A stretch of 64,000 bases of DNA, taken from NCBI GenBank assembly GCA_050084515.1, contig CM114271.1:45508001-45572000 (forward strand). Direction: 5' to 3'. The notes under the pieces were generated by a model. The model worked only from the letters and a program-made list of their open reading frames with translations, was not told the DNA's origin and made no database searches. This document shows, in pieces, positions 34 to 64,000 of this stretch (the first letter of the stretch is position 1; each line of letters begins with the position of its first letter). The position numbers were made by a program, and so were the translations under genes. The DNA comes from Blasia pusilla (taxonomy: Eukaryota).

Positions 34-2981
34 ATGGATGACCAAACTACGATAGCCAAAGTAAGTAGATCTGGAAAAATGTTCAAATTAGATGTTTCTA
101 TGCCAGAGATTCAAACATCCATGTATGGTCAAATCGGCCAACAAGTCACGGATCTAAATGTGTGGTATAAGAGAATTGGACATATGAATTTTCAAAGCTT
201 ACAGAGTCTTTCATCATATAATATAGAAATATGACTTCCAAAATTAGCAAGTCCCTACGTTAGAGATATGTCCTGCTTGCCAATTTGGAAAACAAGTAAG
301 ATTTCTTTTTCCAAAGCAAGGTAGAAGAGCATCCAAGATATTGGAGTTGATCTACAATAATGTGTGGACAACATCACAACATAGCCTTAGTGATTGCGAG
401 TACTTTATTTCATTTATTGATGACTTATCTATGTATATATGGGTATACTTTCTGAAAGCCAAGTTAGAGGTATTCTCAATGTTCCAAACATTCAGAGTTC
501 TAGTAGAGAAGCAGATTAGAGAATACATTCTGAAATTGCGTTTTGATGGAGGAGGAGATAATCTTTCAACAGAGTTTGATGACTATTTATGTCAGAATGA
601 CATCCAAGATGAAGTAACTTACCGTTACACTCCACAAAAAAATGGAGTGGTTGAGAGGAAGAATCAACATATTGCTGAAGTGACACGAGCTATGCTAAAT
701 GAGAAAAACATGCCTAAGATGTATTGGGCAAAGGCTGTAGTGTGTGCAGTCTTCTTAATCAACCGAACTCCAACAATAGGAGTTCATGATAAGACTCCAT
801 TCGAAGACATATTGCTGAAGCGATACGAGCTATGCTAAATGAGAAAAACATGCCTAAGGTGTATTGGGCAAAGGCTGTAGCGTGTGCAATCTTCTTAATC
901 AACCGAACTCCAACAGTAGGAGTTCATGATAAGACTCCATTCAAAGTCTTCATAGGAAATAAACCTGATTTTTCCTTCTTGAAAGTATTTGGTTGTATTT
1001 GTTATGCTCATGTTCTTTCTGAAAGACTACAGAAATTAGACCCCAAATCTGAAAGATGTATATTCATTGGCTACGTTGATGGAACTAAGGGGTATAAGTG
1101 CTACATTCTATCCTCTAGGCACCTTATTATTAGTCGCGTTGTTGTCTTTTATGAGCTAAAGTCATTGTATGCTCTATCTGAGCCTATTTCATCTCTAAAC
1201 TCATTTGTTGAGGGGAGAATATGAATATAAACCAGTAGACATTGCCTTCAAATTTCCCAAATATTAGTGTAGGATTTAGTCTGTTGACACTAGTCAGAGC
1301 TCGAGCCAGGTGTTAGAGGCATCTACCCTGAACAACAATTTTGTAGATCAAGTAGAGTTACACATCATGTTCATAAATTTATAAATGAAGGTTTCCTTGC
1401 AACACATCATGCATATATGATGACTACGCTTCAAGAACAAGAGCCGAGATGTTTTGAAGAAGCTGCAAGTAAAGTCGAATGGATTGAAGCTATGGAGGAA
1501 GAGCTTACTGTATTAAAAATCAACAAATATGGGAGGTGGTTGATATACCTTCCGGTAAGGAAGCTACTTGTTGTAAATGGGTTTACAAAATCAACACAAT
1601 CAAGATGGTACAATTAATAGATACAACACGAGATTGGTGACTAAGGGCTATACACAACAATATGATATTGATTATCAGGAAATATTTAGCCCTCTTGCAA
1701 AGATGGCGACTATGAGAACAATGGTTGCAATTGCAATAAGTAAGAAGTGGAGATTACATCACATGGACGTCAAGAATACCTTCTTGAATGGAGATCTATA
1801 CGAGGAGGTATATATGACTCAACCATCTAGATATGAGCATCCCAAGTTTCATTTCGCGTATGCAGGTTGAAGAAAGCTCTATATAGGCTAAAATAAGCTC
1901 AAAGAGCTTGGTATGACAAGATTACATACGTCCTACAAGAGCTGGGTTTTAGGATATGTGATTCTGACTCCTTGTTATATGTCTTGATAGGACAAGATTA
2001 TACGGTTATCATTGTGTTGTATGTTGATGATCTTTTGATTATTGGGAGTATTGAAGAAATGGTACAACAAGTCAAGCTGAAGTTACAAGCAGAATTTGAT
2101 AAGAAGGATTTGGGAGAACTCAAGTATTTCCTTGGTGTTGAATTTATCAAGGTTGGAGAGAGCATGTGGTTACTACAACAACAATATGCTCTTCATATGC
2201 TTTCAAAATATGATATGACGGCTTGTAAGCCAATCTCTATACCGTTGGATCAGAGTGTGAAGCTAAGAGTGGATGAAGAAGAGTTGCTTGCAGATTCTAA
2301 TATGTACAAGCGTATGGTTGGAAGTTTGATCTATCTAACTATAACCAAGCCAGATTTGAGCTATGTTGTTGGCATAGTGAGCCAATTTATGCAAGCACAT
2401 CGAAAAACTTATCTTGATGTTGTGAGGAGGATTATGCGCTATGTGAAATTCTCTGTTCAATTCGGACTTCAATTTGAACCTTCTCCGAATTTTCAATTAC
2501 TAGGATTCACAGATGTTGATTGGGCAGGAAGCGTGTCTGATCGACACTCTACATCTGATTATTCATTTACTTTGGGAAGCTCATCTATAAGTTGGGCTTC
2601 AAAGAAGCAACCTACAATTGCTTTATCTTCAATAGAGGTTTAGTACAGAGGAGCAACCAATGTAGTATGTGAGACGGTGTGACATGCTACATTGGTGTTA
2701 GTAACTTAGGACCTAGTGTAATATATGCAGACAATATTAGTAACATCAAGCTTGTTAAGAACGTTTTGTTTCATGCTCGTACAAAGCATGTTGAGGTGCA
2801 CTATCATTTTATCATAGAGAAAGTGTTTTCCGGAGAAATTAATCTTGTGTATATAGATACAGATCAACAAATTGCTGACATCTTTACAAAGGCATTATCT
2901 AGAAATAAGTTTGAGATGTTTAAAAATGATATATTTGTTAAAGATATCGATATGAGATTGAGGGGGAGTATTGAAGATTGA
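34..2981 (+). mobile_element. Degenerate Ty1/copia LTR retrotransposon pol (GAG-pre-integrase, integrase, RT, RNase H); 5' part lies outside the window
   Basis: Domains in copia order: WYKRIGHMN (pre-integrase); FIDD..YIWVYFLK, LRFDGGG and YTPQKNGVVERKN (integrase); HHMDVKNTFLNG and LYVDDLLI (RT); DVDWAG, YADN, HARTKHVEVHYHF and QIADIFTKAL (RNase H). Many stops and frameshifts. Confidence 0.97.
667..946 (+). repeat. Tandem duplication, 2 x 140 bp, inside the copia integrase
   Basis: 667-806 and 807-946 align without gaps with 7 mismatches, all transitions; duplicates the peptide MLNEKNMPKxYWAKAV. Confidence 0.95.
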
Positions 2982-18777: not shown

Positions 18778-21700
18778 TTATTTCATAGATTTGGTTCCTG
18801 TCTCCCAGGCTGCTTTCTGCTCGGCAGCGTCTACTTTCTCAGTCCATCGTTTCGCCTTCTTCTCAAAGGAAGCTTCACTGCAGCCATACACACTGTTGAG
18901 TGACAACGATTTGAAGAGCTCCCCAAGCCGCTGATGCCGAGGAATGATGCGGTTGGCCAAGCTGTAGCTGAAGTACTGAGGAAAAGGAATCACCTCTTTC
19001 CTGGAGCGTTTCATGACGTCCACAAGGTACCCATACTTGGGTGCTAGCACGGTCACCACACTAAAGCCCAGTAATGAAGGCAAACTCCTCACCATGTCTG
19101 CAACCTCAGCTCTGCCAACCATACCATTGTGTGTAGGTAAGAGGTATTGTGGACTTAATCACAAAGGACCTTCTGGCAGGTTTTAAGTGAGGAGTTGGAG
19201 GACATGGGCATAAACTAAAGAGAAAAGAATCAGCTGACTTCTTGCCCAAGAGGACCATGGAGCTACGAGAGATATCAAAAGGTAACAACCAGTACTAATC
19301 ACCAAGCACTCAGGAAATCAGTGCGGAATTAATCCGAAAAGAACTCCTTGATCATAACTATTCCTATTATCACTCCTACCTTGTGAAACCAAGCTTGAGA
19401 AGGTACGTGACAGTTGGTTTAAGATTCTTCTCCACACTCAAGGTGAGCAATTGTGGGTGCCTGGTAACCAATCTTGCAAACAAAAACACAAAAATCTTAA
19501 GAGATACAGAAACATTTAACATCAGTGAGAGTGTAGACACCACTATGGCGCCTGGTAGATGGTCATTTACAGTGAGAAGCAAGTGGAGGATGGACTGTAC
19601 CTAAGAACCTTATTCACCCTTCTCAACAGATGATTTTGCCCCTATCGGCCAAGAAAACAGACTACTCACTAAGTAGCACCTGTCGTTTCCTTATCACATG
19701 AGGAAACATATAGTTCTCATTAAGTAGTGGCTGTTGTAGAGTTGCAAACATTGAACATGTGCAGATGTGCCTAGTGCTAGACTGAGGAAACAGACTCCAC
19801 TCACTAAGTAGAGCTTCTCCTTGTGAATGTAGACTCACTAAGGAAACAGAGAAAGATTGGAAACTGTTTAGGAGAAGGAAAAGGCAGGTAGCCACATACT
19901 TTGCAATCTCTGCCTGCTTAATTTGAATGCTTTTGAGAAACTTTATGTTTGGCTTGAGCTTTGTCTCAACACTGTAGCCTAGAATCATGGGTTTCAGCTT
20001 CAAAACCTGACAATGGAAGTGAGGAAAGTTCAATTAGTGATTTCGCTTCAAGTGGAACCAAGAAGATTGTGAAGTATTTGCAAGCCAAATGTCAATAATC
20101 TGGTTCACCTGGTTCTATTCCAATGCAACAATTTGAAGATTTCAAAGACTTGTGTAGATGTAAAGTGGGGTAATTTAGACTGCCCACACAGAGAACCCCA
20201 AATGTCCTTGAAATCAGTCATCCAACATCAACCCTATGATAACCTTTCTACAAACTCAAAGAAGCTTTACACCTAACAACTTTATTTCAAAAGACTATGA
20301 CTGTAAAACTAATGCATGTTAGCTCATACGAACTTTCTGATGGTTATCGTAGTGACTTACCTTTAGAAGCGAAGCTCCATTGATTCCAATGCTATCAAGA
20401 AACTTGACGGTGGGTTCCATATTGTCTCCAACACTCAGGCCCATAAGTTGTGGGGCATTATAGATAACCTTCATATCAGACACCGTCATCAATAGCCATC
20501 CTAGAGAGCCTCCGGCTTCTTGAAAATCAAAAAATTCCGATCACTTCTTTGATTTAATGTCCTGACATTCTAGATCACTCATCCTTCCAGTGTCATTAAA
20601 CCAAACATCTACCAAACCAGGTGCGCTGACTATCAATATCACTATTTATACCATTATTGGAGAGTGCCCCTTCATTTTGCAAATTCTTCTCTTCTTGACA
20701 CTTGGCACATTCAGCCAATAGGATTGCTTGGCTTCTAAGCCAATAGGATTGCTCAAAATTGAGAGTTAATTATGGGAGGTAATTCAAACCTGTGCATCGA
20801 ACATGCTTACACTAGTTAACTAAACATATGGACAAACCAACCATAAGATTGTGTCAAATTGATCCTATGGGTCATGAAAAGATTATTAAACCTTAAAAGT
20901 TTAATCTGTGTGAGATTATGTAAGTTCAGTTTCAACTACCACATGAAAATGAGAAACTCAAGTCAGAATTGATACCCCTAACATCAGATCGACTTTAAAA
21001 AACACAAACATCTCACCTTACCGAGATCTTTGTGGTCCAGACCCACGTTGAGGAGGAATTCTATTTTGAGCTGAAAGTTGTGTCGATTTTTCAACAATTG
21101 AGGATGCCGCCTGAATAGCTTGCCCATGAGACCAGGTTCGACCCCCAACCTTTCAAGGTGCAGAACGGTCGGTCGAAAGTCCTGGTCATGAATAAAATCA
21201 ACCACAGACGCTCAGAATTCTGACCCGTGTGAACAACCATGCTGTTACTCAGCAACGACACTACTGTAGTAATTCCAAACTGACACTTACGTCTCTTGCG
21301 CCCAACAATCCAGCCAACTAGCACCCTGACTATGGACAACTTCATGGCCGCCAGACTCACCTCAAGAAAAATGTAAAACTTTCTCTCTTCTTTGACACTT
21401 ACTTTTTGGTAACACTAGCTTAATATCACTGCTGTCCAACACAGCATCAAACCAGACCGCTGCAAACTGTTACTTCAACACTCCACTACATGTTCAGGGG
21501 AGTTCGTCACTGCCCAGTGCCTAGCCCCTTCAGTTTTAGGACGCACTGCATATCACAGCCAGCCCAAAACAGCTCACTTGCCTGTTCAATATCGTAGCAG
21601 AACAGCTGAGGAAACGACATCAGAATCTTGTCGATGTCATCCGCACTTGCATTCAAGCTCTTGAGATAGTTCCCAACCGGCATCAGTTCCTTCTCCACAT

Positions 21701-23078
21701 CACTATCCAGCAACAACGGTCTTCGGATCAGGACTGTACCTATGTGCTCTTTCTGTACCCCTAGATCTACCAGGTATTTAACAAGGGGATCCAGCTTGAT
21801 CTCAGCGTCTTCTGTAAGGAGGATGGGATATCTTACCACCAGCTTCTTTACATCCTTCAGTTGCACGCCCAAGCTTTCCAACACTTTCACAGATGTATGC
21901 AGCTGGCTTTGAGCGTCCCTACCGAGAATTTGCGGAAAGTCTATTACCATCTTGCCAATATCTTTGTGGGCTAGTCCAAGGCTAACTAGGTAGTCAACAT
22001 TCTGTGCCAAAGTGTCGCACTGGTTGGATAGAAGCTGTGGCCATCTCACCAATATTCCAGGAAGATGGATGTACTTAACGCCCAGACTCCTCAAGAACTC
22101 CACTTTCGCCATCACCATATCAATTCCTCGCTCCACAAAAGGCAGCACAATGGGAATATTCAGCGCCTTCATTCCGATAACCTGGAAATAGTGCACAAGC
22201 CTTGCCAGCCCTCTCCTTTCCGCACATACTGACACTCTGGAGGCCAACACACTGATCCGTTCACTTTGAAAGGGCTCCTCGGCATTTGCATTCGCTTCCG
22301 GCTCCGAGCTTTTGGAAATCTCCCAAAGCTTGCGCATATTTCTTCCTCGCTCCCGATCTGCAAACGAAGCCTCGATATTATGAGTCGGGTCCTCCCCGTC
22401 ATTACGAACACTTGCCTCACTGCTTCCCACGCCAGGCCATCTCCCATCGAAGCCCTGCAAAAATTCCACATCCTCGAAGACCTTGTCTTTAGCCTCCACA
22501 ATCAAATCATCGATGAGATCTCCCGCGTGCCTGACAAACTCAAACGCGTACCCCGAAGTCACCCCTTTCTGCTCTAAGAGATCCAGGAGTCCATTCATGG
22601 CCTCAATTCTCTCCTGACGAGAGAATATCGTTCTGACCTCCAGAGCCTGTGCCTCCTTCTCCAGCAGCGTCGGCAGCTGCCTCCCAACATTCGTGTTGGA
22701 CAGGACTGAAGGCGGGGACACGATGAGATCCTGTATATCGTCAAATTCATGTTTCTCAGTGGCAACCTTCCTGCTCTGCTTCGTCGGCAGACCGTCTCCT
22801 CCTCCCACATACGCACAGCACGAGAATCCAGAACCTGCCCCCTGCCTCCTCCTCTCTTGCAGACTCCAACGCGAGCGAACCCCTTGATCTCCTCCCCACG
22901 CCGCTCCAGCTCCAGCTCTGAAGAAGCGAATTCCCAGCGCTGAGCGCCCACAACAGCCCCGCAGAAACGCTCGTCGTCTCTCGGGCGGCGAAGCTGCGCG
23001 CAGCTCGAGGTGCAAAGAAGCGGCGAGCGAGGCGACGCGAGCGCGAGCTTCAATACTGGAATTGCACACAACTGACAT
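18778..23078 (-). CDS. mTERF: mTERF-family protein, probably organelle-targeted, 6 exons
   Basis: Exons 23078-21582, 21181-21017, 20468-20361, 20006-19900, 19472-19380, 19111-18778. Repeated mTERF motifs (RWPQLL, DFPQILG, RYPILL, RHPQLL, LKPTVTYL..LG) and C-terminal FPQYFSYSLANRIIPRH. R/S/A-rich N-terminus resembles a transit peptide. Start taken at the first in-frame ATG (MSVVC). Confidence 0.92.
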
Positions 23079-38084: not shown

Positions 38085-38325
38085 AGATAACTCTTCCAAT
38101 CAGCAAGTCACACTTCCCTGTTATCGACGATGCTCAAATCTCCTCGATGTGCGATGTGAGTCCAGTGGTACGGTGGGGCACTAGCGGCACGGAACGACTA
38201 CAAATTAAACAACATGACACTCAATGATGGAATGCGGCACTCAACGGCATACCTTCCTCAATCAGCAAAAAATGTTATGTTCCCCAATGATGGTGCGGTT
38301 TTACAATTGAGACGGTGCGGTGCAC
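38085..38325 (-). repeat. Inverted, diverged fragment homologous to the LTR-like region at ~59517-59760
   Basis: The reverse complement shares colinear blocks: TGCACCGCACCGTCT, ATTGAGGA.GGTATGCC...GAGTGCCGCAT, ATCGAGGAG.TTTGAGCA.CGTC and TGACTTGCTGATTGGA.GAGTT.TCT. Confidence 0.8.
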
Positions 38326-43560: not shown

Positions 43561-44586
43561 GGCCTGAAAGGTTATTGAAGAAAGAGACTCCATTGGAATA
43601 GTGACCATATCTTATAGAAGCACAACCAATTGTGACTATTATGAATGGATTTTTTTCCATTGGAATAGGTTACAAGACTCTTTTGTTTAATCTGAAACTC
43701 CTATTTTGTTGGAGTTCGTGATCAGAATCCTATTTTCTTGCATTTTGTTATCACATTGACTTGTGTTTTTTAATCTGGATGCTTCCTTTGTTTCTCTCCT
43801 TTCCTCCCTTGGCATGTGTTTGAAAGACTCATATATAGAAAGTCTAGCCTTCCCAAGCCTTGCCTAGGTGTATAACCCTGTCCAAAACCCCAATATTGCT
43901 CCAAGAAGGTGATGTAAGCCCAAAAGCCACTCAAAATATGTACAACAAGTTCCTAATTAACCAATCAGGAAACCTCCAAGAGGGTTCTAAGAAATCCCCC
44001 GAAAGGATGACAAATAGACATAGGTCACCAAGGGAGACCAATAGGTTACTCCTATCCTCTCAATCTCTAACTATATACATATATCCCTTGAATTGGGTTG
44101 CACCATCTATTCTTGTTTGACTACAACTAGCGTGACATAATTGTGTTTCCATATTCATTGAGAAATTTGGATTTAAAAAAATCTTGACGACTTTCAGTTC
44201 ATTATTATTTGTTGTATGAATCTCTCCATATGCACAAAATTTCTCCAAAGCATCATTGATGCATGAATAATGTATATCGAATAAAAATAAATTTAGTATA
44301 AGAAATCATATTTTGAAGTGCAAGAAAAAATCATTTATTGAAATTAGTATACGATCCCATATGAGTTAGGGACCCAATAAATGAGGAATTTAAAGTTGGA
44401 CATGGTTGGAATAATTTGGAGATTGAAAATAATTCTCATTATTTTGAATAATCCTCATTAATAAGTCCGAGTGGACTTATTAAGTTATTATGTGTGTAAC
44501 CGAAGCCTCTCATGACAAGAATGAGGTTGGCTTGACAATTAGAAAATTATGGAATGTTTGTGTGAATTTGTGCTTGCTCGTTACAA

Positions 44587-55104: not shown

Positions 55105-57077
55105 GACAGTTTCCTGCATTTGGCCCTATCCCTGCATCAAGCAATTGTTTATAAGTCAGTGCACTCCTGCGGCTTTGCACCGAAACACTGGGCCTTGGAA
55201 GTGGAATCACGATCACAAAGCTGAGACTGCTAGCAGTTTGGTATCCCACAATTTTCATGTTCAGGCACACCACATTTGTGAAATTGCAGTACATTGCAGA
55301 TATCATGTTCAGTAGGTCCATCGTCCTTGCAGCTGAAGTTGCACATCCAATGATTACAATCAATGATGCAGATAGTAATGATCGTAGAGCTGCTGCTATT
55401 ACACCACATGGATCCGGTCTATGGTTAGTGAATTCTTTGAACTATCAAAGTTGCTCAAATTTCCTCATGAGATGGTGGGATAACAGTGAAGTGGTCGCAG
55501 GAGAGGAAGTTGAGCTGAGAGCAGTAAAGTACTTGTCCTTCCAGAACTAGCAAGCTCATTCTCAATCCAATGGTTGAAGTCGTGGAAGAAATTGCAATAG
55601 AAAGCCCAGCTCTGCGAGCTTGGCCTTCACATGAATCATCGGGTCACTCATGCGAAAAACGAGTCCGACATTGAGTGCCAGGGTTTTCTTAGAGAGTGGA
55701 AATAGGGGTCATTATGGTACCCCTTCTTCCTCAGCGAGCACTCACACATTTACTTTAATCTTCCAGATCACGTAACTGCAAACTATTGCTGTTGCACCGA
55801 ACAGAAATCCTTCTTTTCCTCGAGATTTCCTGTACTTTGTGCCAACTCTACCATCGCTGGTTGCTGCAATTACCCCCGTTCTCACTGCAGCATTCAGTCG
55901 GTCACATGGCCGTAGATGTCATGCGAATGAACCAAAACCCTAAACCTTGGAGGCAAAAGGCTCTCATCGCTGTGCATGGTAGGCACAGCGATGATGGGGT
56001 CGCTTGGACACTAATTTCATGTGTGGATGGGAAATGCTTGAGCTGGCCAACCGTGAGCAATCTCAGCAAGAGTGCTCAAGGACTAGCATGACGACGGCTG
56101 CCAAACGAAAGAATTCAACTTTCACGACTAGAAGCAGGGAGGAGCTCCCTTGTGTTCAGAAGCTTGCCCCAACTGCTGGATACGGTTCGCAGACTCCGAT
56201 TGCTCAGATGGTACTTGGCAATAAAAGCTCTTCAATTGTCAGGAGAAAATTGGAGCTTGCTGTCGTGAAACTCGGCACCGCGAGAGTCGATCAGGGTATC
56301 TCCAGACGCGGAAGCAGTGCCCATGTGACACATACGACCAAATTCTCCGATGTGGCGATCATCATCATCATCGTAATAAATCACAGAAAATCATCACCGC
56401 ATCGCTCTCCACATAATTTCCCCTTTCCACTGTTGTTAACGAGCACGACGCCAGCACTGAAAGTGTGTACGAGACGCTTCTACAATCACAGGCTTTTGCC
56501 TCAAACCGAATTGTTCACACACCGGGTACACCGACAAGAGAGACCAGAAAGAGACCGTCGGCACCAGCACAGAAACGAACTACCGCAAATTGGTCGCATG
56601 GATTGCACCCAAACTGTCCGCTGAAACCTACCTCACATCATTGACACGAAGGTAGATTCGCACATTCCTACGCGTGCTAGCGAGCCCGTGGCACATGAGA
56701 CACGGAGGAGGTGTCCGCTCTATTACCTTCAAGAGATTGATGTAGTGGTAGTCAGCAGATCCGTCCCCAGCGACGGCAATAGCTTCCGTTGCCTTCCTGT
56801 CCCCGCGACGCGAATCAAAGTGTGCGCGTGAAATTGTCAAATCGCGTCTGCTGTAAGCACCCGAAACCCTCTGTGCCTCGCGGATCGGAGAACGCTCGAA
56901 TGAATGCAGTCACGCTAAGGGCTAGGGATCCAACCGTGCCGCCCCTTCCACTTCGCACTCCATCACGCTGCGATTGAGACTCATCTCAAAACGTGTCAGA
57001 GGCGAAGAAACTTGTCTCATTTGCTTTCATGGAAGAGAGACCTCTTCTCGCGTCGCTCGAGAACGTTGCCTCCACGG

Positions 57078-57292
57078 GCGAATGTGGCAGCTCAAGAACT
57101 TTCTCACATGCACTACGAAAGTGCGAAAATGTTGTGTAGCTCAAGAAAACCTATGCGAAAGCGTGAGAATGTGGCAGCTCAAGGGCTTTGCTTCCATGCT
57201 TTACAAAAGCGTGAAAACGTGGCACGGCTAAAGAACGAAAGTGTGAAAATGTGGCATAGCCGTATGAATTTTTCTCCATGCTTTACAAAAGA
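57078..57292. repeat. Degenerate short tandem array (~40-50 bp, about 5 units)
   Basis: Recurring (G)TGAAAATGTGGCAGCTCAAG-like core, and CCATGCTTTACAAAAG twice. Confidence 0.7.
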
Positions 57293-57636
57293 GTTTGGCA
57301 TTCTCTCAATCAATTTCTCCATCTACGAGACATACCATACGGCAACATCCAGTAAGGGACATTTAATAATTCATGTTTGAATGTCACTCCTTACAAACAA
57401 CCAAAAGCATTTTTGAGAATGACCAAAAGTACTTATTGGAGAAATATAGTGACATGCGTCAAACATCTATATACTACTAGCATAATTCCTACTAGTAAGG
57501 TGTGCGATGCATGAGTATATAAATATGTCATAATTCACATTCGATGATTTTAATCCAAGTAATTCACATTCTATTGCCTACCCTCTTTTCATAGAGAATG
57601 AAAAAAGAAACTCGGGTGATTCATTTCTTACATAAG

Positions 57637-58060
57637 TTTTTTTACCTTCTATTTATAGCAACCCCCTAATATTTGGTTTCTAGTATAGATAGATTTGCTT
57701 GATGACGTTCACTTCCTCAAGCCAAGTGCGCGAGAGAAGGTGAAAAACTTAGACGTAAGGTCCATATTTGAGTGATAGAAAGTACCATTGTCAAAGTAGC
57801 AGTTCATATTTGCCCCATAAGTAGTTTCTAGGAATGAGGAGTAATTACTTAATTATAACGCCTGTGAGGTGTTGTGAATTTGTTTGTTGTTTCCAACTTT
57901 CCTTGTGTTGGCCCTAATATGATTGAGTGAAAACTCAGAGGAAGGATTTGGAAAAGAATGGGGAGTACAGATAGATGCTCGTTTTTTTTACCTTCTATTT
58001 ATAGCAACCCCCTAATATTTGGTTTCTAGTATAGATAGATTTGCGTGATGCCGTTCACTT
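57637..58060. repeat. Direct duplication of ~78 bp (57637-57714 and ~57982-58060) containing a Helitron-like 5' end on the minus strand
   Basis: TTTTTTACCTTCTATTTATAGCAACCCCCTAATATTTGGTTTCTAGTATAGATAGATTTGC is present twice. A candidate CTAG 3' end lies at about 57492. Confidence 0.8.
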
Positions 58061-58069
58061 TGTCACGGC

Positions 58070-60037
58070 TGTTAGGATAGATCGGTGGGATCTAGCAGAG
58101 CGTCTTCACGAGTAGAGGAGGACAAGCCCAGGAGGTCGAGGATGACTTGCTGAGGCCCTAGGAAACCTGAGAGAGTAGGTTTCCCCTTCGTTTCGGCTCA
58201 TTTGGAGCCATATAGAGAAAAACTTGCTATTTCGAGGAAGTTTCCATGTTGGTGATAATTGACTTTCCACTTTGGGAAGTGGCCCTTGACCCGCTACAGC
58301 AGGTCAAAAGCCAAGGAGGTGACCTACGAGTATAGGTTACCATTGAGAGGGCTTGGGAGAGGGAAGGGAGTATACCTCCAAGAGAGAGAGATAGAGATCA
58401 TTCTCTCTTTGTTGAACCTCTTGGCATGAGGCGGCGGAGCTATGGTCCCTTGCCTTGTGAGTGTAACCCAAGCCTCTCATTAGGAGAGTGGGTTTGGTTT
58501 GACATGAGAGAGAGTGCACACCTTTGACAGCTATGGTATGAGATGGTGTAGAGAGAGATTGGATCTTACTTTACAAAGAGAGAATGAGAGAGTGAGAGAG
58601 CTTCATGGGGGAGCTCGCTGGTCACTCCCTGTTTTTGGAGGTTGGGGACCATGTTCCCCGTTCAACGGCTCATAGGAGTGCTCACCGAAGCAAGGGCTGC
58701 TTTGATTGTTCTTTGCATTTGCCAATTTTTCGTGTGGAAGAGTGACGTGCAGAAGCGTTGCCCAATTTCTGATAGGGATTGATTATGGGGTTGGGTTGTC
58801 ACATGCCGGTGCTCTTGGGAGCACCATGTAGCTTGTTGATTTGTATTTTTACAGGATTTACATTTTCTTTGGGAGAAATCAGCGTGGAAGCACTGCCAAA
58901 TTTTGTGTAGGAGAAAGAGACATTGGGCCTTACAACAGTCCTTGTCAGTTTTTACTGGAATGTTCGATTCTAAATATTTTTTGACGCTGTCATAGATTGT
59001 GAAGTTGTGCAAGCTGTGCAACAAAAAATGCGCAATTTGGAGTTGCAAACAAAAAGTTATGGTCAATCTTGAAAAATTGCCATTGCTAGGCAATTTTTAG
59101 GGTTAAATTGTTCAAACCCTGAACCAGCCGCCACTCCGGCGGCTGCCGTCGCTATCATGGTAACCGTCAACGATCCTCCATCGACGGTCAACCTTCAACG
59201 TTAGTGTCAGTGGTCAACCGTCACCGTCCGTTGTCCACCCTTTGGTTGCCATTGCCGTCTTTACGGAGTGGAGGGTCTTCACGACGTTCGTTGATTCTTT
59301 GACTTGCGTCGCCACCACGTACTTTGTTTTGGTCGCTATCATCATCGCAGTTTCGTCATCAACCAGTGATGGCAGATGACCTATGGTTATGGTGTTTGAG
59401 TTGTGATTTCATGCTGCTATGTTGTGATTGGTAGTCGCTCGACGATGATCGAGTACCATGCCGTGACGCCCGTAGCCGCAACGCGCCACCGATTGCCGCG
59501 TCGTGCCGCTCATGGCTGCACCGCACCGTCTGGATCACGGAGCCGCATCATCATTGTGGAGCAGAGTGTGGGTTTATTTTTCATTGAGGAGGGTATGCCA
59601 CCGAGTGCCGCATCCCACCATCGAGGGCCGTGCCATTCGTAGCCATTTCGTGCCGCTTGCAACGCCGCACCGTTCCGCTGGAATCGCACTGTCTATCGAG
59701 GAGTTTTGAGCAGCGTCAGTACGGGAGGAGTATGACTTGCTGATTGGAGGAGTTGTCTCCACGACCGAGTTGGGGTTGAGATTTGCAGTTGCTGAGGAGT
59801 GACATCAACATGTATTCAGGTTATCCATTTGGTCCTTTACCCTACACGTGTGAGGGATTGTGGGATTTGGGTAGTTTATTTGGGGATATTGGGTGTGTGG
59901 ATGCTGAGAGCATCATGTATGTATGTGGTTTAGGGGACATAGACCTATGTGGGATGTCTTGAGTTGAGGGTAGGTTGTCGATGAGATAATAGCCTGGTCA
60001 ATTTGCCGCACCCCGCCGCTTGTTGCCGCACGTTACA
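58070..60037 (+). repeat. Putative 5' LTR (~2 kb)
   Basis: Begins TGTTAG where homology to the upstream duplicated flank stops; candidate end GTTACA about 100 bp before the gag ATG; shares segments with dispersed repeats elsewhere in the window. The second LTR is not in the window. Confidence 0.55.
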
Positions 60038-60133
60038 CGTCTCGGGGAGGGAGAGTGTAGATTGAGTGACGTATGTTTGGGATGAGTGATTGAGGGATTA
60101 CTCGCAAGGTGAGAGTGATCGGGTGAGAGGGGC

Positions 60134-61400
60134 ATGAGGGTCATCACAGCGTCCATTCGGGACTTTGAGAGACGAGGTGGTGAACTCGAGAGTAGCTCTA
60201 GAGGTTTTACGCGGAGTGGCGCGAGGTTCCGAGGGTCTCCACGTGAGGGACCACCTCGACCTCCTTCTGTGTCATCGTCAGACGAGGGGGAGGGTGTAGA
60301 GGAGTTTATGAGCACATCGCCACACATTGTGAGTGGTCCTACCAGTTGGGCATACGAGATGGACGACCGGGGTAGAGGACCGCATAGCTTTTCAGGTGTA
60401 GTAGGCACGATTTCATAGCGGAGTTTAGGAGTTGGTGTGACTCACAGCGGGCTAGGAACTCTAGAGAGTTCAACTCGTTTACAGCATGGAACGGTATGTT
60501 CCAGCATTTAGAGAGGGCGCCCATGGACAATTACCATGAGTTCTCCCATAGATATGCCCACGAGATTGAAGCATGCCGACTCTACTACAACCCACACTAT
60601 GTGTTATGGACGGAGCCGTTCCGAGATGAGGAGGAGGAATCAAGAGAGGCTACTTCATCTTCCACTAGTGACGTTTTAGGAGGGGTCACTTGCATGGGAG
60701 CAGTTGCACCGTCTAGTCGAGTTCGTCCCAGGTTCAACCATGTGGTTGAGTTCTTTGTTGAGTTGAGGGCGAGCTACCAGGGGATACGGACGGAGAATTT
60801 GCAGAGCCTCCACGAATTCCAAAGACGCTCGGGTGAGAGTTTGCGTGAGGCTTAGACTCGCTTGCGCCGGTTGATCAACGTCACTCAAGGGGTGACAAAG
60901 GCTCAGGCTATCCAGTCATGGTACGCGATGCTGGATCGGACCCTGCGGGTGCGGGAGGGGGTGCTTCTTATGAACACCTCCCCTACATTTAGAGATGTTT
61001 TTAGGACCGCCAAGAACATTGAGCGCAACATGGCGGAGGAGAGCTTAGCCACCATGGGTTTTAGGCGAGAGTAGTCACGATTGTCTGCACCACCTGTCCA
61101 GCAACTTGGACTCCGAGATAGGTCGACTGTGGCACCACAAGCTCAGGGAAGATACCGGGAGGGTGTGCCATAGAGACCTACGCCTTCATATGCGGCTTAG
61201 CAGCAACCGCCTACTATCACTTGTTGTGCATGTGGTGGAGCCCATCATCAACGCGGGATTGCACTCGTCAGGATCTTGGACGTGTGCCTCAGCATGGAGG
61301 AGGAGATGGTGCTGCACCAGGAGGTTATCAGTGTGACTATTGTCACAGGTATGGTCATACACGCGCCAAACGTTTCAGTTTACATCTTAAGTTACGTCCA
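60134..61400 (+). pseudogene. gag: Retrotransposon gag with two CCHC zinc knuckles (frameshifted)
   Basis: FFVELRASYQG...LHEFQRRSGESLREA*TRLRRLI (gag major-homology-like); CCACGGAHHQR(D)C at about 61222 and CDYCHRYGHTRAK(R) at about 61332. Confidence 0.8.
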
Positions 61401-62337
61401 GACTGAGGGCCAGAGAGGGCACTAGAGCGAATAGTCGGTCCGGGTGGGCTAGAGATCGTGCACTAGGTGGTCCTGTTGGGGGACGAGGAGCTGGAGTTGC
61501 CCGACATGGTGGTGGAGCTGCCCGTGGAGGAGGTAGAGTCCTACCATCTAGACGCGTCGAGGGAGATGTCGGGCGTGTGGCTAGGATGGCTGCTCACATA
61601 CATCAGCTACAGGAGCAGATTGCCGCTATGGCATTGACATTACCCGATGCCGGATCCGTGGCATCGACATCATATGGAGTAGCCAGAGATATGGAGGATC
61701 CTGGTTGGATATGTGGGATTGCCCAGATGGAGGCAGCCGTAGTTGTGATGCGTGGAGCAACCGCAGAGTTGGATCCACAGCGAGGGGAACCGAGGAAACA
61801 GACTAGGCTTCCTCAGTATTTCACGTTGTCCGAGACGATGACGACCCCATGATGGGTCCTAATCAGAGTTCTTGGAGAGTTGGTGATGTTGTTGGTATGC
61901 AGGCACGGAGGGCGATGGGAGAAGCGAGTGCGACGATTCCTATTGTTGATGCTCAGGAGGGGCATGTGTCGAACATGTTGCTAGGACTGGCCACCATTGT
62001 GTATCGCGCTCCTTTATTTTTTGCTTCCGATGTTATGACGTTGGGGGGTACGCCCGCCGAGGCTTTTCGGCTGGCCTCCAGGCTATGTGAGCGTGGAGTT
62101 GGAGTTCTTGCATCACGTTCAAAGATGATTGCAGAGGAGGTGATGGACCTGCCCTTGGAGCGGATGCTCGAGCCATCCACGTCAGATTCATGGCAGGCTG
62201 CGGCTGCTAGGATGGCAGAGATGCCCGCTGAACCCGCGAAAGAGTGTGCCATGGCTTCTCCTGGTGTTGTGTTGCTAGATAACCAAGGAGAGGTCTTCCA
62301 GTTGGTGAGTCCCGGAGGTAGAGCTTTTAGTCCGTAG

Positions 62338-62703
62338 CGCGTCTTGTTGGATTCAGAAGCGCAACCCCTAATGTTGGGGAAAGCGTCATTCAGAGGATTG
62401 GGCTTGACGAGAGCCGATATGGAGCGTTGTCCATTCCGGATACAAACATCCTTGGGTGGAGTAAGTACCACACAATATATCACCCGAAAGGAGGTCGTGA
62501 TGAGGATTCGCTCGGGACATCCTACAGATGAGTCCGTGGTGCGAGCCAAGGCGATAGTGACTGATGAAGAGACTCACGACGTCTTGGTTGATGGAGCAGT
62601 GTTATACTCGATGGGGTTTGCCCTGGATTACTGGGAGGAGTCAGCGTCCGACAGACCAGGATGGCACTCAGGTGATGGGCGTCTTAGCTCATTACCCGTT
62701 TGA
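62338..62703 (+). pseudogene. Retroviral-type aspartic protease
   Basis: RVLLDSEAQPLMLG (D-S-G-A motif with G>E), IQTSLGG flap-like region, and HDVLVDGAVL (DVLIG-like). Confidence 0.8.
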
Positions 62704-63060
62704 TTCACAAGTGCAGTGATCGAGCAACGGCCAGGAGAGGTGGCGACCTTAGCAGCATTTAGCAGTGCCATCACTTGGCCTAGTGATTTGATTGAGGGAC
62801 ATGTCCATGCAGAGGATACTCCCATTCCTGAGATTTCTATGGAGAGGAGTGTTATGGTAGCCGCATCATTCCGCGGAGGAGAGGTATAATTGTGGGGCTC
62901 GACTAAGGAGCTTCGATGATTGGCAGATGAGCAGGTGCAGACCGCGTGGAGCAAGGCGTTTGCACCGAAGCGTGATGGGTCTAAGAAACCCGAGGTTGCA
63001 GGGAGTGCTACAATGACACCCTTAGATACCACACCCATTGTGTGGTGTATCCCGGAGGAG

Positions 63061-64000
63061 GGTATTCGAGTGTTAGATCTATTTGGAGGGATTAGCACCT
63101 GGTTAGCTGCTGTTTTGCAGGCAGGAGTGCGAGTGCAGCACTACCTGTATGTGGAGAGTGATGATGTTGCAAGGTGCGTCTCACTACGATATGTGGCGCA
63201 GTTACACGTACGTTTTCCCGACTTCTTGTCTGCGTCCGCGGTACAGGGGTACCAGAGTTCCCTATCGAGGGATATTTTGTTGCTGGGGCATAGGACTTAG
63301 AGCGGGTAGTGACCATTGATTTGGTCATTGTCGGTTGGCCATGTCAAGGCCAATCGAGTGTTGGACGAGGCAACGGGTTGGCTGACACTCGGTCCAGGTT
63401 GTTTTGGGAGATGTTGAGGGTCTTACGACACTTGCAGGAGCACCAAACTTGTTCTCCAGCCTACATTTTGGAGAACGTGCCGATCTTAGGAGACTCTAGG
63501 TCACGGGTGGTGACGACTACTCATCAAGTGCATGCCTGGATCGGCCCAACAATGTTCTTGGATGCGGCGAGTGTAGGGTCTAGAGCCCATCGCCCGCGTC
63601 TATGATGGACCAACTTGGTGCCCCATGCGGTGTTACCGAGGGCGTATGCAAGAGTGGAGCACCCCTTCCATTTGTTAGTGGATTCCATTCTGGATCCAAG
63701 TCGTCGATCACAGGCAGTGAGGCACGATGATCAACCACCATTGACTGTGGTCAACAGGGTAGGCAGGCCGCGGGCAACCTTGCCCACATTTGTGAGTTTT
63801 CCCGCTTCTTATGCATACAAGGAGGCCAGTCCTGGCTTGGTTTAGGATGACCAGGTTCAGCGGTTGGTGGAGCCCAACACCAACGAGAGAGAGCGAGCAA
63901 TGGGATTTCCCACAAGAGTGAGGGCAGTACCGTAAGTGTCAGAGGCATCACGACGCCATGTCTTGGATCAGGCGATGGACTTGAACTGCTTGACATGGAT
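63061..64000 (+). pseudogene. C5 cytosine DNA methyltransferase domain (DNMT3-like) within the retroelement polyprotein
   Basis: Motif I IRVLDLFGGIS, II YLYVESD, III RDI, IV DLVIVGWPCQ (63333-63347), V SRLFWE, VI YILENV (63471-63479), VIII AHRPRL*WTN, IX ERERAMGFP, X RRHVLDQAMD. One frameshift near 63292 and three stops. Confidence 0.93.

What the first reader, a model, noticed from the sequence alone, without database searches (positions are those of the whole stretch)
60134..64000. Land-plant retrotransposon encoding its own cytosine DNA methyltransferase inside the gag-pol polyprotein
Seen in sequence: gag, two CCHC knuckles, an aspartic protease (62338-62703) and then a complete C5-MTase domain starting at 63061 in the same frame as the protease. 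The two are separated only by point-mutation stops at about 62701, 62887 and 62917, and there are no introns. Established (from memory, de Mendoza et al. 2018, Nat Commun): DNMT-carrying retrotransposons were described in dinoflagellates and charophyte algae, whereas ordinary land-plant LTR elements go straight from protease to RT or integrase. Inference: because the neighbouring genes (CHI, plant-type EDRF1, mTERF) indicate an embryophyte, this lineage may have persisted into, or re-entered, land plants. The enzyme could be released by the protease and methylate the element's own cDNA or its insertion sites. I cannot confirm novelty without a search.
Basis: partly seen in the sequence, partly recalled or inferred. 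Interest (0 to 1): 0.93.

Follow-up and report, generated by a model that had tools for sequence, protein, structure and literature searches.

The report
Dead methyltransferase-carrying retrotransposon copy in a liverwort
The window ends in a decayed copy of a jumping gene that carries its own DNA-methylating enzyme, a kind described in print only for algae but shown here to be abundant in liverworts and mosses.

Summary
Window 58070-64000 (+) holds the 5' two-thirds of a Ty3/gypsy-type retrotransposon. Its reading path runs gag-like region, two CCHC knuckles, aspartic protease, then a DNMT3-type C5 cytosine methyltransferase. The window ends at the last methyltransferase motif, so RT and integrase cannot be seen here.

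This copy is dead: 11 in-frame stops, at least four frame changes (one between methyltransferase motifs I and IV) and a damaged protease motif.

The host is a liverwort. A neighbouring mTERF gene is 73% identical to the Marchantia polymorpha protein.

The family is real and widespread:
- 13 annotated Marchantia proteins, 2 from Calypogeia and 2 from Sphagnum match it.
- 107 metagenome stretches encode relatives.
- Relatives show CCHC-PR-DNMT-RT-RNaseH-integrase-PHD, and three loci have split direct repeats.
- In this organism's own reads the family is roughly a thousand-fold repeated and transcribed in sense.
- In an intact sister subfamily the DNMT has dN/dS of about 0.12.

The closest described kind is KnitGypsy-Dnmt3 of the charophyte Klebsormidium (de Mendoza 2018). 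Ten full-text searches found no paper describing such elements in bryophytes. I rate it a new member of a known kind, of moderate interest. What the enzyme does remains untested.

The parts
58070..60310 (+). 5' terminal repeat plus untranslated leader of the element. The start is at about 58070 (TG...). The inner limit of the repeat was not determined.
   Evidence: Depth of the organism's own WGS reads (X18) is 0-1.3 per direction in 56000-57868 and 55-59 in 57869-58135. It is 105-1210 from 58136 onward. No second copy of the repeat is in the window, so its length cannot be measured. No initiator-tRNA-type primer-binding motif lies inside the element.
60409..61254 (+). gag-like N-terminal region (no Pfam family); four in-frame stops
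   Evidence: tblastn of Marchantia P0008 residues 25-312 gives 44% identity. The stops are at 60853, 61072, 61171 and 61198.
61222..61358 (+). Two CCHC zinc-knuckle remnants. The first is split by a frame change near 61254. The second lacks its last Cys.
   Evidence: Motif coordinates come and the frame change. Intact knuckles sit at the homologous place in L052. PF00098 hits occur in P0035 and P0235-P0238.
61586..62301 (+). gag C-terminal and spacer region, in two frames; one stop at 62335 just beyond it
   Evidence: tblastn of P0008 residues 398-485 (frame 2) and 514 onward (frame 1).
62302..62703 (+). Retroviral-type aspartic protease remnant. The active-site motif reads D-S-E (62350-62358) where relatives have D-S-G. 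It ends at the stop at 62701.
   Evidence: P0002 residues 110-303 align to P0148 605-790. P0148 661-755 is PF13650/PF13975. The motif is located and the L052 homologue is shown. Pfam does not hit the window piece itself.
62704..63039 (+). Linker between protease and methyltransferase, conserved in relatives; stops at 62887 and 62917
   Evidence: Contiguous alignment with P0045, with L043 ORF1 residues 545-1012 and with P0008 514-955; stops.
63040..63288 (+). DNMT3-type C5 methyltransferase, N-terminal part with motif I (63076-63096), in the protease frame
   Evidence: The alignment of the family profile to DNMT3A starts at this motif.
63294..63998 (+). DNMT3-type C5 methyltransferase, motifs IV to X, in another frame. 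Motifs: IV (PCQ, 63333-63350), VI (ENV, 63465-63479), VIII (HRPRL, 63588-63602), X (63897-63980). Three stops. Cut by the end of the window.
   Evidence: PF00145 at E 8.6e-12. Translation P0001. 63-67% identity to liverwort proteins over 100% of the query. Motif coordinates. Stops at 63603, 63843 and 63933.

Best explanation
Window 58070-64000 is the 5' part of a decayed, non-coding copy of a bryophyte Ty3/gypsy-type retrotransposon family. Its polyprotein carries a DNMT3-type cytosine-5 DNA methyltransferase between the protease and the reverse transcriptase. The copy is inserted in a liverwort genome and is cut by the window end.

Shown:
- the domain order gag-CCHC-PR-DNMT in this copy;
- the order continuing as RT-RNaseH-integrase-PHD in relatives;
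- split direct terminal repeats in three related loci;
- high copy number and sense transcription of the family in this organism;
- purifying selection on the DNMT in an intact sister subfamily.

Inferred, for live family members only:
- The enzyme is made as part of the Gag-Pol polyprotein and freed by the element's protease.
- It then methylates the element's newly made cDNA or its integration neighbourhood.
- The PHD finger on the integrase reads histone tails to choose insertion sites.

I put about 0.9 on the identity and about 0.3 on self-methylation of cDNA as the enzyme's job.
For: Identity of the domains:
- PF00145 matches the window piece.
- Liverwort and moss proteins are 63-67% identical over 100% of the DNMT query. 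Of 39 hits, 17 are named: 13 Marchantia, 2 Calypogeia and 2 Sphagnum.
- The window is collinear with Marchantia P0008 across gag, knuckles, protease, linker and DNMT.
- 360 proteins match the protease-linker-DNMT query at E<=1e-3. They include P0045, with one contiguous stretch across the junction.

Architecture in relatives:
- P0035 has CCHC-PR-DNMT-RVT_1-RNaseH, and Marchantia P0009 has DNMT-RVT_1-RNaseH.
- L052 has the full order plus integrase and PHD between terminal repeats.
- P0236-P0238 are single ORFs of 2318-2374 aa with all domains.
- L043 ORF2 is closest to yeast Ty3 Gag-Pol, E 4e-98.

DNMT3 type:
- The family profile hits DNMT3A at 1.2e-18, DNMT3C at 2e-17 and DNMT3B at 1.3e-16.
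- It hits DRM at 2.8e-8 and M.HhaI at 9e-6. The motif order is unpermuted.

Host.

Abundance and RNA:
- X18 depth is about 630 (both directions, median of 22 bins) inside the element against about 0.5 in the flank.
- RNA-seq reads lie 5- to 50-fold more on one direction.
- A spliced minus-strand host gene next door shows that this direction is sense for the element.

Decay of this copy.

Selection: dN/dS of the DNMT is 0.12 over 320 codons in each of two pairs of intact loci.

Tree: the window's DNMT sits in a well-supported clade (SH-aLRT 97) with 11 Marchantia, 2 Sphagnum, 1 Calypogeia and 5 unnamed rows.
Against: - RT, RNase H, integrase and the 3' repeat of this very copy lie outside the window and no genome is held. 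That this copy ever had them is inferred from relatives.
- Pfam does not recognise its protease or gag pieces.
- The copy-number figure rests on a flank depth made of a handful of reads, and on reads only 90-95% alike (30,869 of 35,791; only 225 are 99% or more alike).
- Most related loci are also dead. Only 3 of 80 have a DNMT stretch of 300 aa or more without a stop.
- The selection estimate comes from a subfamily only 49% identical to the window's, and dS is saturated (1.36) in one pair.
- No activity is known for this kind. The Klebsormidium enzyme gave no methylation in yeast, a result its authors call inconclusive (PMC5890265, section 10 read).
- No Klebsormidium sequence was retrieved, so kinship with KnitGypsy-Dnmt3 rests on shared features, not on a tree.
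Confidence: 0.9

Rival explanations
1. A host DNMT3 gene, or a one-off retrocopy of it, merely lies next to or nested in an unrelated retrotransposon. The apparent fusion would then be a chance juxtaposition in this locus.
For: The methyltransferase is in another frame than the protease from about 63288 on, and many stops separate the parts. Pfam sees only the DNMT in this window.
Against: The same protease-linker-DNMT order is contiguous in single proteins and loci from other species. The linker itself is conserved. The DNMT part has the same several-hundred-fold read depth as the gag and protease parts.
Confidence: 0.02
2. The stretch is algal or other contamination, or an assembly chimera, and not part of the liverwort genome.
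For: The junction at about 58070 is not bridged by any record I could inspect. Flank coverage in the WGS sample read was only about 0.5x.
Against: Reads labelled as the same organism hold the family at very high depth in WGS and RNA runs. The nearest relatives of the DNMT are liverwort and moss proteins, not algal ones. The flanking genes are liverwort-like.
Confidence: 0.02
3. The element family reached bryophytes by horizontal transfer, or recaptured a DNMT3 independently. It would then not be descended vertically from the charophyte Gypsy-DNMT3 lineage.
For: In the DNMT tree the two Sphagnum (moss) rows nest between liverwort rows rather than outside them, with support of 82-93, unstarred. 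A second architecture with a related DNMT (RT-RNaseH-DNMT-integrase-PHD: P0039, P0240) shows that the domain has moved within elements.
Against: The Klebsormidium elements are described as Gypsy by domains but DIRS-like by repeats (PMC5890265, Fig. 4c legend read). Three related loci here show exactly such split direct repeats with gypsy domains. Both DNMTs are DNMT3-type and intronless. These are shared oddities, but no joint tree was possible.
Confidence: 0.25
4. In live family members the DNMT domain does not methylate the element's own DNA. It might act on RNA, methylate host DNA in trans, or serve as a non-catalytic DNA-binding module.
For: The Klebsormidium domain gave no DNA methylation in yeast (PMC5890265, section 10). 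The same paper raises RNA methylation for LINE-borne DNMTs and other roles (section 11).
Against: The catalytic motifs (PCQ, ENV, RxR, motif I) are invariant or nearly so across the family alignments. The domain is under purifying selection. Its closest solved relatives are de novo DNA methyltransferases. A related DIRS-borne DNMT3 does methylate CG de novo (PMC5890265, section 10).
Confidence: 0.2

Closest known systems
KnitGypsy-Dnmt3 of the charophyte Klebsormidium nitens (de Mendoza et al. 2018, PMC5890265; sections 9-11 and 15 read)
   Same: An intronless, unpermuted DNMT3-type methyltransferase sits inside the polyprotein of an element with gypsy-type domains. The terminal repeats are arranged as in DIRS elements; relatives here show A1...B1-A2-B2. 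The DNMT is under purifying selection: Ka/Ks<0.2 there, 0.12 here in a sister subfamily.
   Different: The host is a land plant (liverwort; relatives in Marchantia, Calypogeia and Sphagnum). The copy number in this organism is of the order of a thousand, whereas the paper stresses few copies in Klebsormidium. The domain order of the Klebsormidium element could not be read because figures are not held, and no sequence comparison was possible.
SymbioDIRS-Dnmt3 and SymbioLINE-Dnmt of Symbiodinium dinoflagellates (same paper)
   Same: Retrotransposons that carry a cytosine methyltransferase. The DIRS one is also DNMT3-type and was shown to methylate CG de novo.
   Different: These are other element classes (tyrosine-recombinase DIRS, LINE), in another eukaryotic supergroup, and were acquired independently.
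EpiLTRs of Cymbomonas and Euglena (bioRxiv 10.64898/2026.05.21.726589; passages read)
   Same: LTR elements with a DNMT plus a chromatin-reader domain. A Cymbomonas protein (P0239) is a distant hit of the family profile at 32% identity.
   Different: There the DNMT is appended at the 3' end of pol, groups with DNMT4, and comes with an adenine methyltransferase and a chromodomain. Here it lies between protease and RT, is DNMT3-type, and the reader domain is a PHD finger.
Host de novo methyltransferases DNMT3A/3B/3C (solved structures) and plant DNMT3/DRM
   Same: These are the best solved matches of the family profile. Motifs I, IV, VI, VIII and X align.
   Different: The element DNMT has no PWWP/ADD or plant DNMT3 companion domains, is embedded in a retroelement polyprotein, and is not permuted as DRM is.
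Ty3/gypsy LTR retrotransposons, including chromoviruses (reference classification of plant elements, PMC6317226; passages read)
   Same: The order is PR-RT-RNaseH-integrase (H2C2 plus rve). Yeast Ty3 Gag-Pol is the closest solved relative of L043 ORF2.
   Different: This family has an extra DNMT, a PHD finger instead of a chromodomain after the integrase, and split direct repeats instead of plain LTRs. The classification paper does not contain the words methyltransferase, PHD, Marchantia or liverwort.
Ngaro/PAT-like DIRS elements (split direct repeats; recalled, not read here)
   Same: The terminal repeat layout is A1 ... B1-A2-B2.
   Different: Those use a tyrosine recombinase. The relatives here carry a DDE integrase.

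Membership tests
C5 cytosine DNA methyltransferase (PF00145) | Significant match to the family profile | tested here: met
   E 8.6e-12 and 45.5 bits against a cut-off of 22, for 63294-63605.
C5 cytosine DNA methyltransferase (PF00145) | Motifs I (FxGxG), IV (PCQ with catalytic Cys), VI (ENV), VIII (RxR) and X present in unpermuted order | tested here: met
   All were located in this order and align to DNMT3A. They lie in two frames with three stops, and motif X has D where the family has G.
C5 cytosine DNA methyltransferase (PF00145) | Open reading frame able to give an enzyme | tested here: not met
   There is a frame change near 63288 and stops at 63603, 63843 and 63933.
DNMT3 clade | Closer to DNMT3 than to DNMT1, CMT, DRM, DNMT2 or bacterial enzymes | tested here: met
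   Profile against solved structures: DNMT3A 1.2e-18, DNMT3C 2e-17, DNMT3B 1.3e-16, DRM 2.8e-8, HhaI 9e-6, DNMT2 2.8e-4. No DNMT1 or CMT chain is listed at E<=1e-3. This is a ranking, not a tree.
DNMT3 clade | Placement inside DNMT3 in a phylogeny with reference families | not tested
   No reference DNMT sequences could be obtained.
Ty3/gypsy (Metaviridae) LTR retrotransposon | gag with CCHC knuckles and a retroviral-type aspartic protease | tested here: met
   Both are present as remnants in the window, identified through homologues. Pfam is silent on the window pieces.
Ty3/gypsy (Metaviridae) LTR retrotransposon | RT, RNase H, then integrase, in that order | not testable with these tools
   These lie outside the window and no genome is held. 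The feature is met in relatives L052, L043 and P0236-P0238, and Ty3 is the best solved match.
Ty3/gypsy (Metaviridae) LTR retrotransposon | Two terminal direct repeats and a target-site duplication | not testable with these tools
   Only the 5' end is in the window. Seven of 29 related loci of 9 kb or more show a repeat pair, and three of those have the split layout.
Gypsy-DNMT3 retrotransposons (KnitGypsy-Dnmt3 kind) | DNMT3-type domain inside the polyprotein ORF of an element with gypsy domains, without introns | tested here: met
Gypsy-DNMT3 retrotransposons (KnitGypsy-Dnmt3 kind) | Repeats arranged as in DIRS elements | tested here: inconclusive
   Seen in relatives L052, L061 and L065. It cannot be seen for the window's copy.
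Gypsy-DNMT3 retrotransposons (KnitGypsy-Dnmt3 kind) | Sequence kinship with the Klebsormidium elements | not tested
   No Klebsormidium protein appeared (unnamed library) or 46. Supplements and figures of the paper are not available.
Autonomous (live) retrotransposon | Intact gag-pol reading frame | tested here: not met
   There are 11 stops and at least four frame changes on the homology path.

The most novel reading that the evidence does not exclude
Bryophytes, including the genetic model Marchantia polymorpha, keep live Gypsy-DNMT3 retrotransposons that descend from the charophyte lineage. In some liverworts these have multiplied to about a thousand copies. Their transcribed, selected DNMT3 enzymes methylate the elements' own cDNA, and possibly host DNA in trans. 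Transposon-borne enzymes would then be a real contributor to de novo methylation in early land plants. Their integrase-borne PHD finger and split repeats would mark a distinct, unclassified branch of plant Ty3/gypsy elements.
Probability: 0.15. Interest if true: 0.8.

Novelty: new member of a known kind. Interest (0 to 1): 0.5.

Why it matters
Retrotransposons that carry the enzyme normally used to silence them are a paradox, and their function is unknown. So far they are described for dinoflagellates and one charophyte alga, neither easy to manipulate. One opinion paper states that transposon-encoded methylases are absent from land plants 'such as tracheophytes' (PMC6338049, passage read).

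This work shows three things:
- The gypsy-DNMT3 kind is present in liverworts and mosses.
- It is abundant and transcribed in at least one liverwort.
- It is already annotated, unrecognised, in Marchantia polymorpha.

That would move the question of what a transposon-borne DNMT does into a transformable model plant. The standard classification of plant LTR elements also has no place for a family with a DNMT, a PHD finger and split repeats. The window's own copy adds nothing functional, because it is a relic.

Tried and rejected
- Own-genome search was impossible: no genome is held for this window.
A second request sent in the same batch failed on a missing field and was not repeated.
- Pfam on the window's own ORF pieces found no gag or protease family. 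It gave only a sub-threshold C2H2 hit on the knuckle piece.
- A search for the usual initiator-tRNA primer-binding motif found 3 matches in the window (4.9 expected by chance), none inside the element.
- The ESM Atlas look-up gave only 'Streptophyta' and 'Chlorophyta' DNMT clusters and no further lead.
- No Klebsormidium protein came up in the two DNMT homology searches with names, so no joint tree was made.
- The sequencing-run index listed no RNA holder. Expression evidence comes only from the raw RNA runs that were laid.
- DNA comparison of the window's 5' part with the 80 related loci found nothing.
- I had recalled that the algal Chlamyvir clade carries a PHD finger. The papers read say chromodomain, so that comparison is dropped.
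- One literature search was wasted on too loose a setting.
- Structure prediction and complex prediction were not run, because sequence evidence already decided the family.
Full report
WHAT IS IN THE WINDOW

Three-frame translation of 60100-64000 and Pfam on ten ORF pieces show one certain domain. It is a C-5 cytosine DNA methylase (PF00145, E 8.6e-12) in 63294-63605.

Read through its stops with X, the frame 63294-63998 (P0001) carries these motifs (coordinates):
- motif IV (GWPCQG, 63333-63350)
- motif VI (ILENV, 63465-63479)
- motif VIII (HRPRL, 63588-63602)
- motif X (AMGFP...LDQAMD, 63897-63980)

Motif I (DLFGGIS, 63076-63096) lies upstream in a different frame. That is the frame of the protease-like stretch (P0002).

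So are a stop at 62335 and three inside the methyltransferase, at 63603, 63843 and 63933.

A tblastn with Marchantia polymorpha protein P0008 (1278 aa) lays residues 25-1192 collinearly on 60409-63998 at 36-60% identity. The path passes through frames 1, 3, 2, 1 and 3.

On that path there are 11 in-frame stops and at least four frame changes. The protease motif reads D-S-E where relatives read D-S-G. The first CCHC knuckle is split by a frame change, and the second has lost its last Cys. This copy therefore encodes nothing. The window ends within motif X, so RT and integrase cannot be seen.

THE HOST

No genome is held for the window.
- The single-exon mTERF ORF at 21507-22700(-) is 73% and 72% identical to proteins of Marchantia polymorpha and M. 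paleacea. The next hits are 47% (unnamed) and 45% (ferns).
- Pfam confirms mTERF and an EDRF1-type TPR domain in the neighbouring genes. I did not check the CHI gene.

The host is therefore a liverwort, or something closer to Marchantia than to any other named genome.

THE FAMILY

With P0001 as query, 39 longer proteins match at E<=1e-3. The best are 63-67% identical over the whole query.
- 17 of the 39 are named: 13 Marchantia polymorpha, 2 Calypogeia fissa and 2 Sphagnum. All are 'hypothetical' or 'unnamed' products.
- With the protease-linker-motif I query P0002, 360 representatives match at E<=1e-3. One of them is P0045 (1775 aa), with a single contiguous stretch from the protease into the methyltransferase.

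Pfam on relatives gives the architecture:

| Relative | Domains, in order |
|---|---|
| P0035 | CCHC, aspartic protease, DNMT, RVT_1, RNase H |
| Marchantia P0009 | DNMT, RVT_1, RNase H |
| P0148, P0030 | protease, DNMT |
| P0236-P0238 (single ORFs, 2318-2374 aa) | protease, CCHC, DNMT, RT, RNase H, integrase |

A scan of metagenome contigs found 107 stretches encoding relatives, and 80 loci were kept.
- Locus L052, read in three frames with X at stops, shows the full order between terminal repeats: gag, knuckles, protease, DNMT, RVT_1, RNase H, integrase (H2C2 plus rve) and a C-terminal PHD finger.
- The RT-integrase ORF of L043 is closest to yeast Ty3 Gag-Pol among solved structures, E 4e-98.

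TYPE OF METHYLTRANSFERASE

A profile of 16 family members hits solved chains as follows:
- DNMT3A at 1.2e-18, DNMT3C at 2e-17, DNMT3B at 1.3e-16
- plant DRM at 2.8e-8, M.HhaI at 9e-6, DNMT2 at 2.8e-4
- no DNMT1 or chromomethylase chain at E<=1e-3

The alignment to DNMT3A runs from motif I to motif VIII, and again at motif X, in normal order. It is a DNMT3-type, unpermuted domain. This is a ranking, not a phylogeny.

TERMINAL REPEATS

Of 29 related loci of 9 kb or more, 7 have a direct repeat pair 6-11 kb apart around the DNMT.
- In three of them (L052, L061, L065) a second short repeat of about 105-116 bp lies both immediately before and immediately after the 3' copy. The layout is A1 ... B1-A2-B2.
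- L052 and L061 are alike from A1 to the end of B2, which marks the element's limits at about 9.1 kb.
- This is the split-direct-repeat layout known from some DIRS elements (recalled), yet these loci carry a DDE integrase.
- The legend of Fig. 4c in de Mendoza et al. [quoted passage not shown]

That shared oddity is my main argument that the bryophyte family is the same kind. For the window's own copy only the 5' end is visible.

IN THIS ORGANISM'S OWN READS

Reads were laid at 90% likeness or more on 56000-64000.

The WGS run X18 (about 1 in 100 of the run read) gives these depths per direction:
- 0-1.3 in the flank (56000-57868)
- 55-59 in the bin holding the supposed start (57869-58135)
- 105-1210 from 58136 to 64000, including 295-387 over the methyltransferase

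Summed over directions, the median of the 22 element bins is about 630 against about 0.5 in the flank. The ratio is of the order of a thousand. The flank value rests on very few reads, so this is a rough order of magnitude.

Of 35,791 laid reads, 30,869 are only 90-95% alike and 225 are 99% or more alike. This copy is a diverged member of a large family.

At the four frame changes, most or about half of the family's reads differ from this copy in length:
- 269 of 488 reads near 61251
- 249 of 451 reads near 61448
- 186 of 294 reads near 61850
- 229 of 358 reads near 63284

The frame breaks are therefore private or minority states of this copy.

Two RNA-seq runs cover the element with first mates mostly on the minus direction. 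Over the DNMT part the figures are 13-24 against 0.8-3 in X21, and 12-30 against 0-0.9 in X22. The host exon at about 56727-57334 has its first mates on the plus direction. That exon is joined to an exon ending near 55131 across an intron whose ends read CT...AC on the plus strand, which marks a minus-strand gene. First mates therefore lie opposite to the RNA, and the element's RNA is sense. The family is transcribed; from which copies is unknown.

ARE RELATIVES ALIVE?

Most are not. Of 80 loci, only three (L043, L045, L049) have 300 or more residues of DNMT in one stop-free alignment.

Those three belong to a subfamily 49% identical to the window's domain.
- L043 is intact. ORF1 (1369 aa) has protease and DNMT. 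ORF2 (1047 aa) has RVT_1, RNase H, integrase and PHD.
- dN/dS of the DNMT (320 codons) is 0.12 for L043 against L049 (dS 1.36, saturated) and 0.125 for L043 against L045 (dS 0.26). ORF2 of L043 against L049 gives 0.06.

The domain is therefore under purifying selection where the element is intact, as reported for Klebsormidium (Ka/Ks<0.2).

TREE

A quick maximum-likelihood tree was built from 47 DNMT rows. Four of the 51 candidate rows were left out for covering fewer than 180 query residues: P0034, P0036, P0038 and P0041.
- The window sits in a well-supported clade (SH-aLRT 97) with 11 Marchantia, 2 Sphagnum, 1 Calypogeia and 5 unnamed rows.
- All Marchantia rows form one clade (support 100).
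- The window's row is long (0.32) and branches at the base of the clade.
- The Sphagnum rows nest among liverwort rows with weak support.

This shows a bryophyte clade but does not decide between vertical descent and transfer.

HOW IT MOST LIKELY WORKS

For this copy: it does not work. It is a relic, at most passively transcribed.

For live members I infer the following, step by step.
1. Sense transcription from the 5' repeat. Transcription is shown for the family; the start site is not.
2. Translation of Gag-PR-DNMT-RT-RNaseH-integrase-PHD as one polyprotein in the Marchantia-type clade. The continuity DNMT to RT is shown in P0009, P0012 and P0023.
3. Processing by the element's protease (inferred).
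4. De novo methylation of the newly made cDNA, or of the insertion neighbourhood, by the DNMT3-type domain. This is inferred. It is the hypothesis of de Mendoza et al., who showed CG methylation only for the dinoflagellate DIRS enzyme and got an inconclusive negative for the Klebsormidium one.
5. Integration steered by the PHD finger reading histone H3 tails. This is inferred from what PHD fingers generally do.

I give step 4 about 0.3.

WHAT IS KNOWN

I used all ten full-text searches.
- The only paper describing this kind is de Mendoza et al. 2018 (abstract and sections 9, 10, 11 and 15 read). It reports it for Klebsormidium nitens and says its single multi-exon Dnmt3 groups with 'metazoan and bryophyte sequences'.
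- Sarre et al. 2025 (passages read) and a 2026 preprint (passages read) refer to 'streptophytes' and 'streptophytes (Gypsy-DNMT3)', citing the 2018 paper.
- Morozov et al. [quoted passage not shown]
- The reference classification of plant LTR elements (passages read) does not mention a methyltransferase, a PHD finger, Marchantia or liverworts.

I found no text describing such elements in bryophytes. Figures and supplements were not available and may list them. Specialists may well know of them.

VERDICT

This is a real feature and was correctly read by the first stage in its essentials. It is a dead copy of a gypsy-DNMT3 retrotransposon in a liverwort. It is a new member (new host group, high copy number) of a known kind, and the interest is moderate.

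Noticed in passing
L043:5083-5085, L049:4661-4663, L045:2081-2083, L071:806-808: In the intact sister subfamily the gag-PR-DNMT ORF and the RT-RNaseH-integrase-PHD ORF are in the same frame, separated by one TAG. The TAG is conserved in 4 of 4 loci that cover the place, although the loci differ by 9-27% in DNA. It is followed each time by CAG TTA or CAA TCA. This fits the UAG-CAR-YYA leaky-stop context of plant viruses (context recalled, not read), which suggests programmed readthrough. Two loci of the nearer family (L028, L034) have Lys there instead.
   Followed up: partly
L052:1679-10805, L061:5626-14835, L065:1328-12353: The elements have split direct repeats (A1 ... B1-A2-B2) together with a DDE integrase. 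This combination matches the legend given for the Klebsormidium elements.
   Followed up: partly
L052 (frame 1 residues 2750-2794), L043 ORF2 residues 990-1034, P0039, P0240: A PHD finger follows the integrase where chromoviruses carry a chromodomain. Among solved structures its best matches are the PHD fingers of CHD4, PHF12 and PHF21A.
   Followed up: no
P0039 (1991 aa), P0240 (2096 aa), P0040: A second architecture carries a related DNMT (35-40% identity). Its order is RT-RNaseH-DNMT-integrase-PHD, so the methyltransferase sits between RNase H and integrase instead of between protease and RT.
   Followed up: no
window 57637-57719 and 57983-58065: An 83-base direct repeat (95% alike, 346 bases apart) ends four bases before the element's start. 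It looks like a local tandem duplication of host DNA into which the element inserted. Read depth there is single-copy.
   Followed up: no
window 248-2643 (+): A Ty1/copia-type retrotransposon fragment, with a retroviral polymerase SH3-like domain (E 6e-29) and RVT_2 (E 6.5e-25), lies at the left end of the window.
   Followed up: partly
window 38085-38324 (-) and 44488-44537 (+): Two short stretches resemble the element's 5' non-coding part. Window 59517-59758 matches 38085-38324 at 71% over 247 bases, and window 58455-58504 matches 44488-44537 at 80% over 50 bases. They may be old fragments of related repeats.
   Followed up: no
window 55131-57334 (-): An expressed minus-strand host gene lies next to the element. 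A first exon at about 56727-57334 is spliced to an exon ending near 55131 (intron 55132-56726, GT..AG on the minus strand). It is seen in two RNA-seq runs.
   Followed up: partly
window 58217-58573 and 58403-58669: Inside the 5' repeat many family reads break away from this copy, at 58217, 58393, 58505 and 58573. Depth peaks about fourfold above the rest of the element at 58403-58669. This may be a variable or separately amplified segment, or solo repeats.
   Followed up: no
P0239 (Cymbomonas tetramitiformis, 2122 aa): A chlorophyte integrase-bearing protein is a distant hit of the family's DNMT profile (32% identity, E 2e-74). It is probably one of the elements the 2026 preprint calls EpiLTRs.
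   Followed up: no
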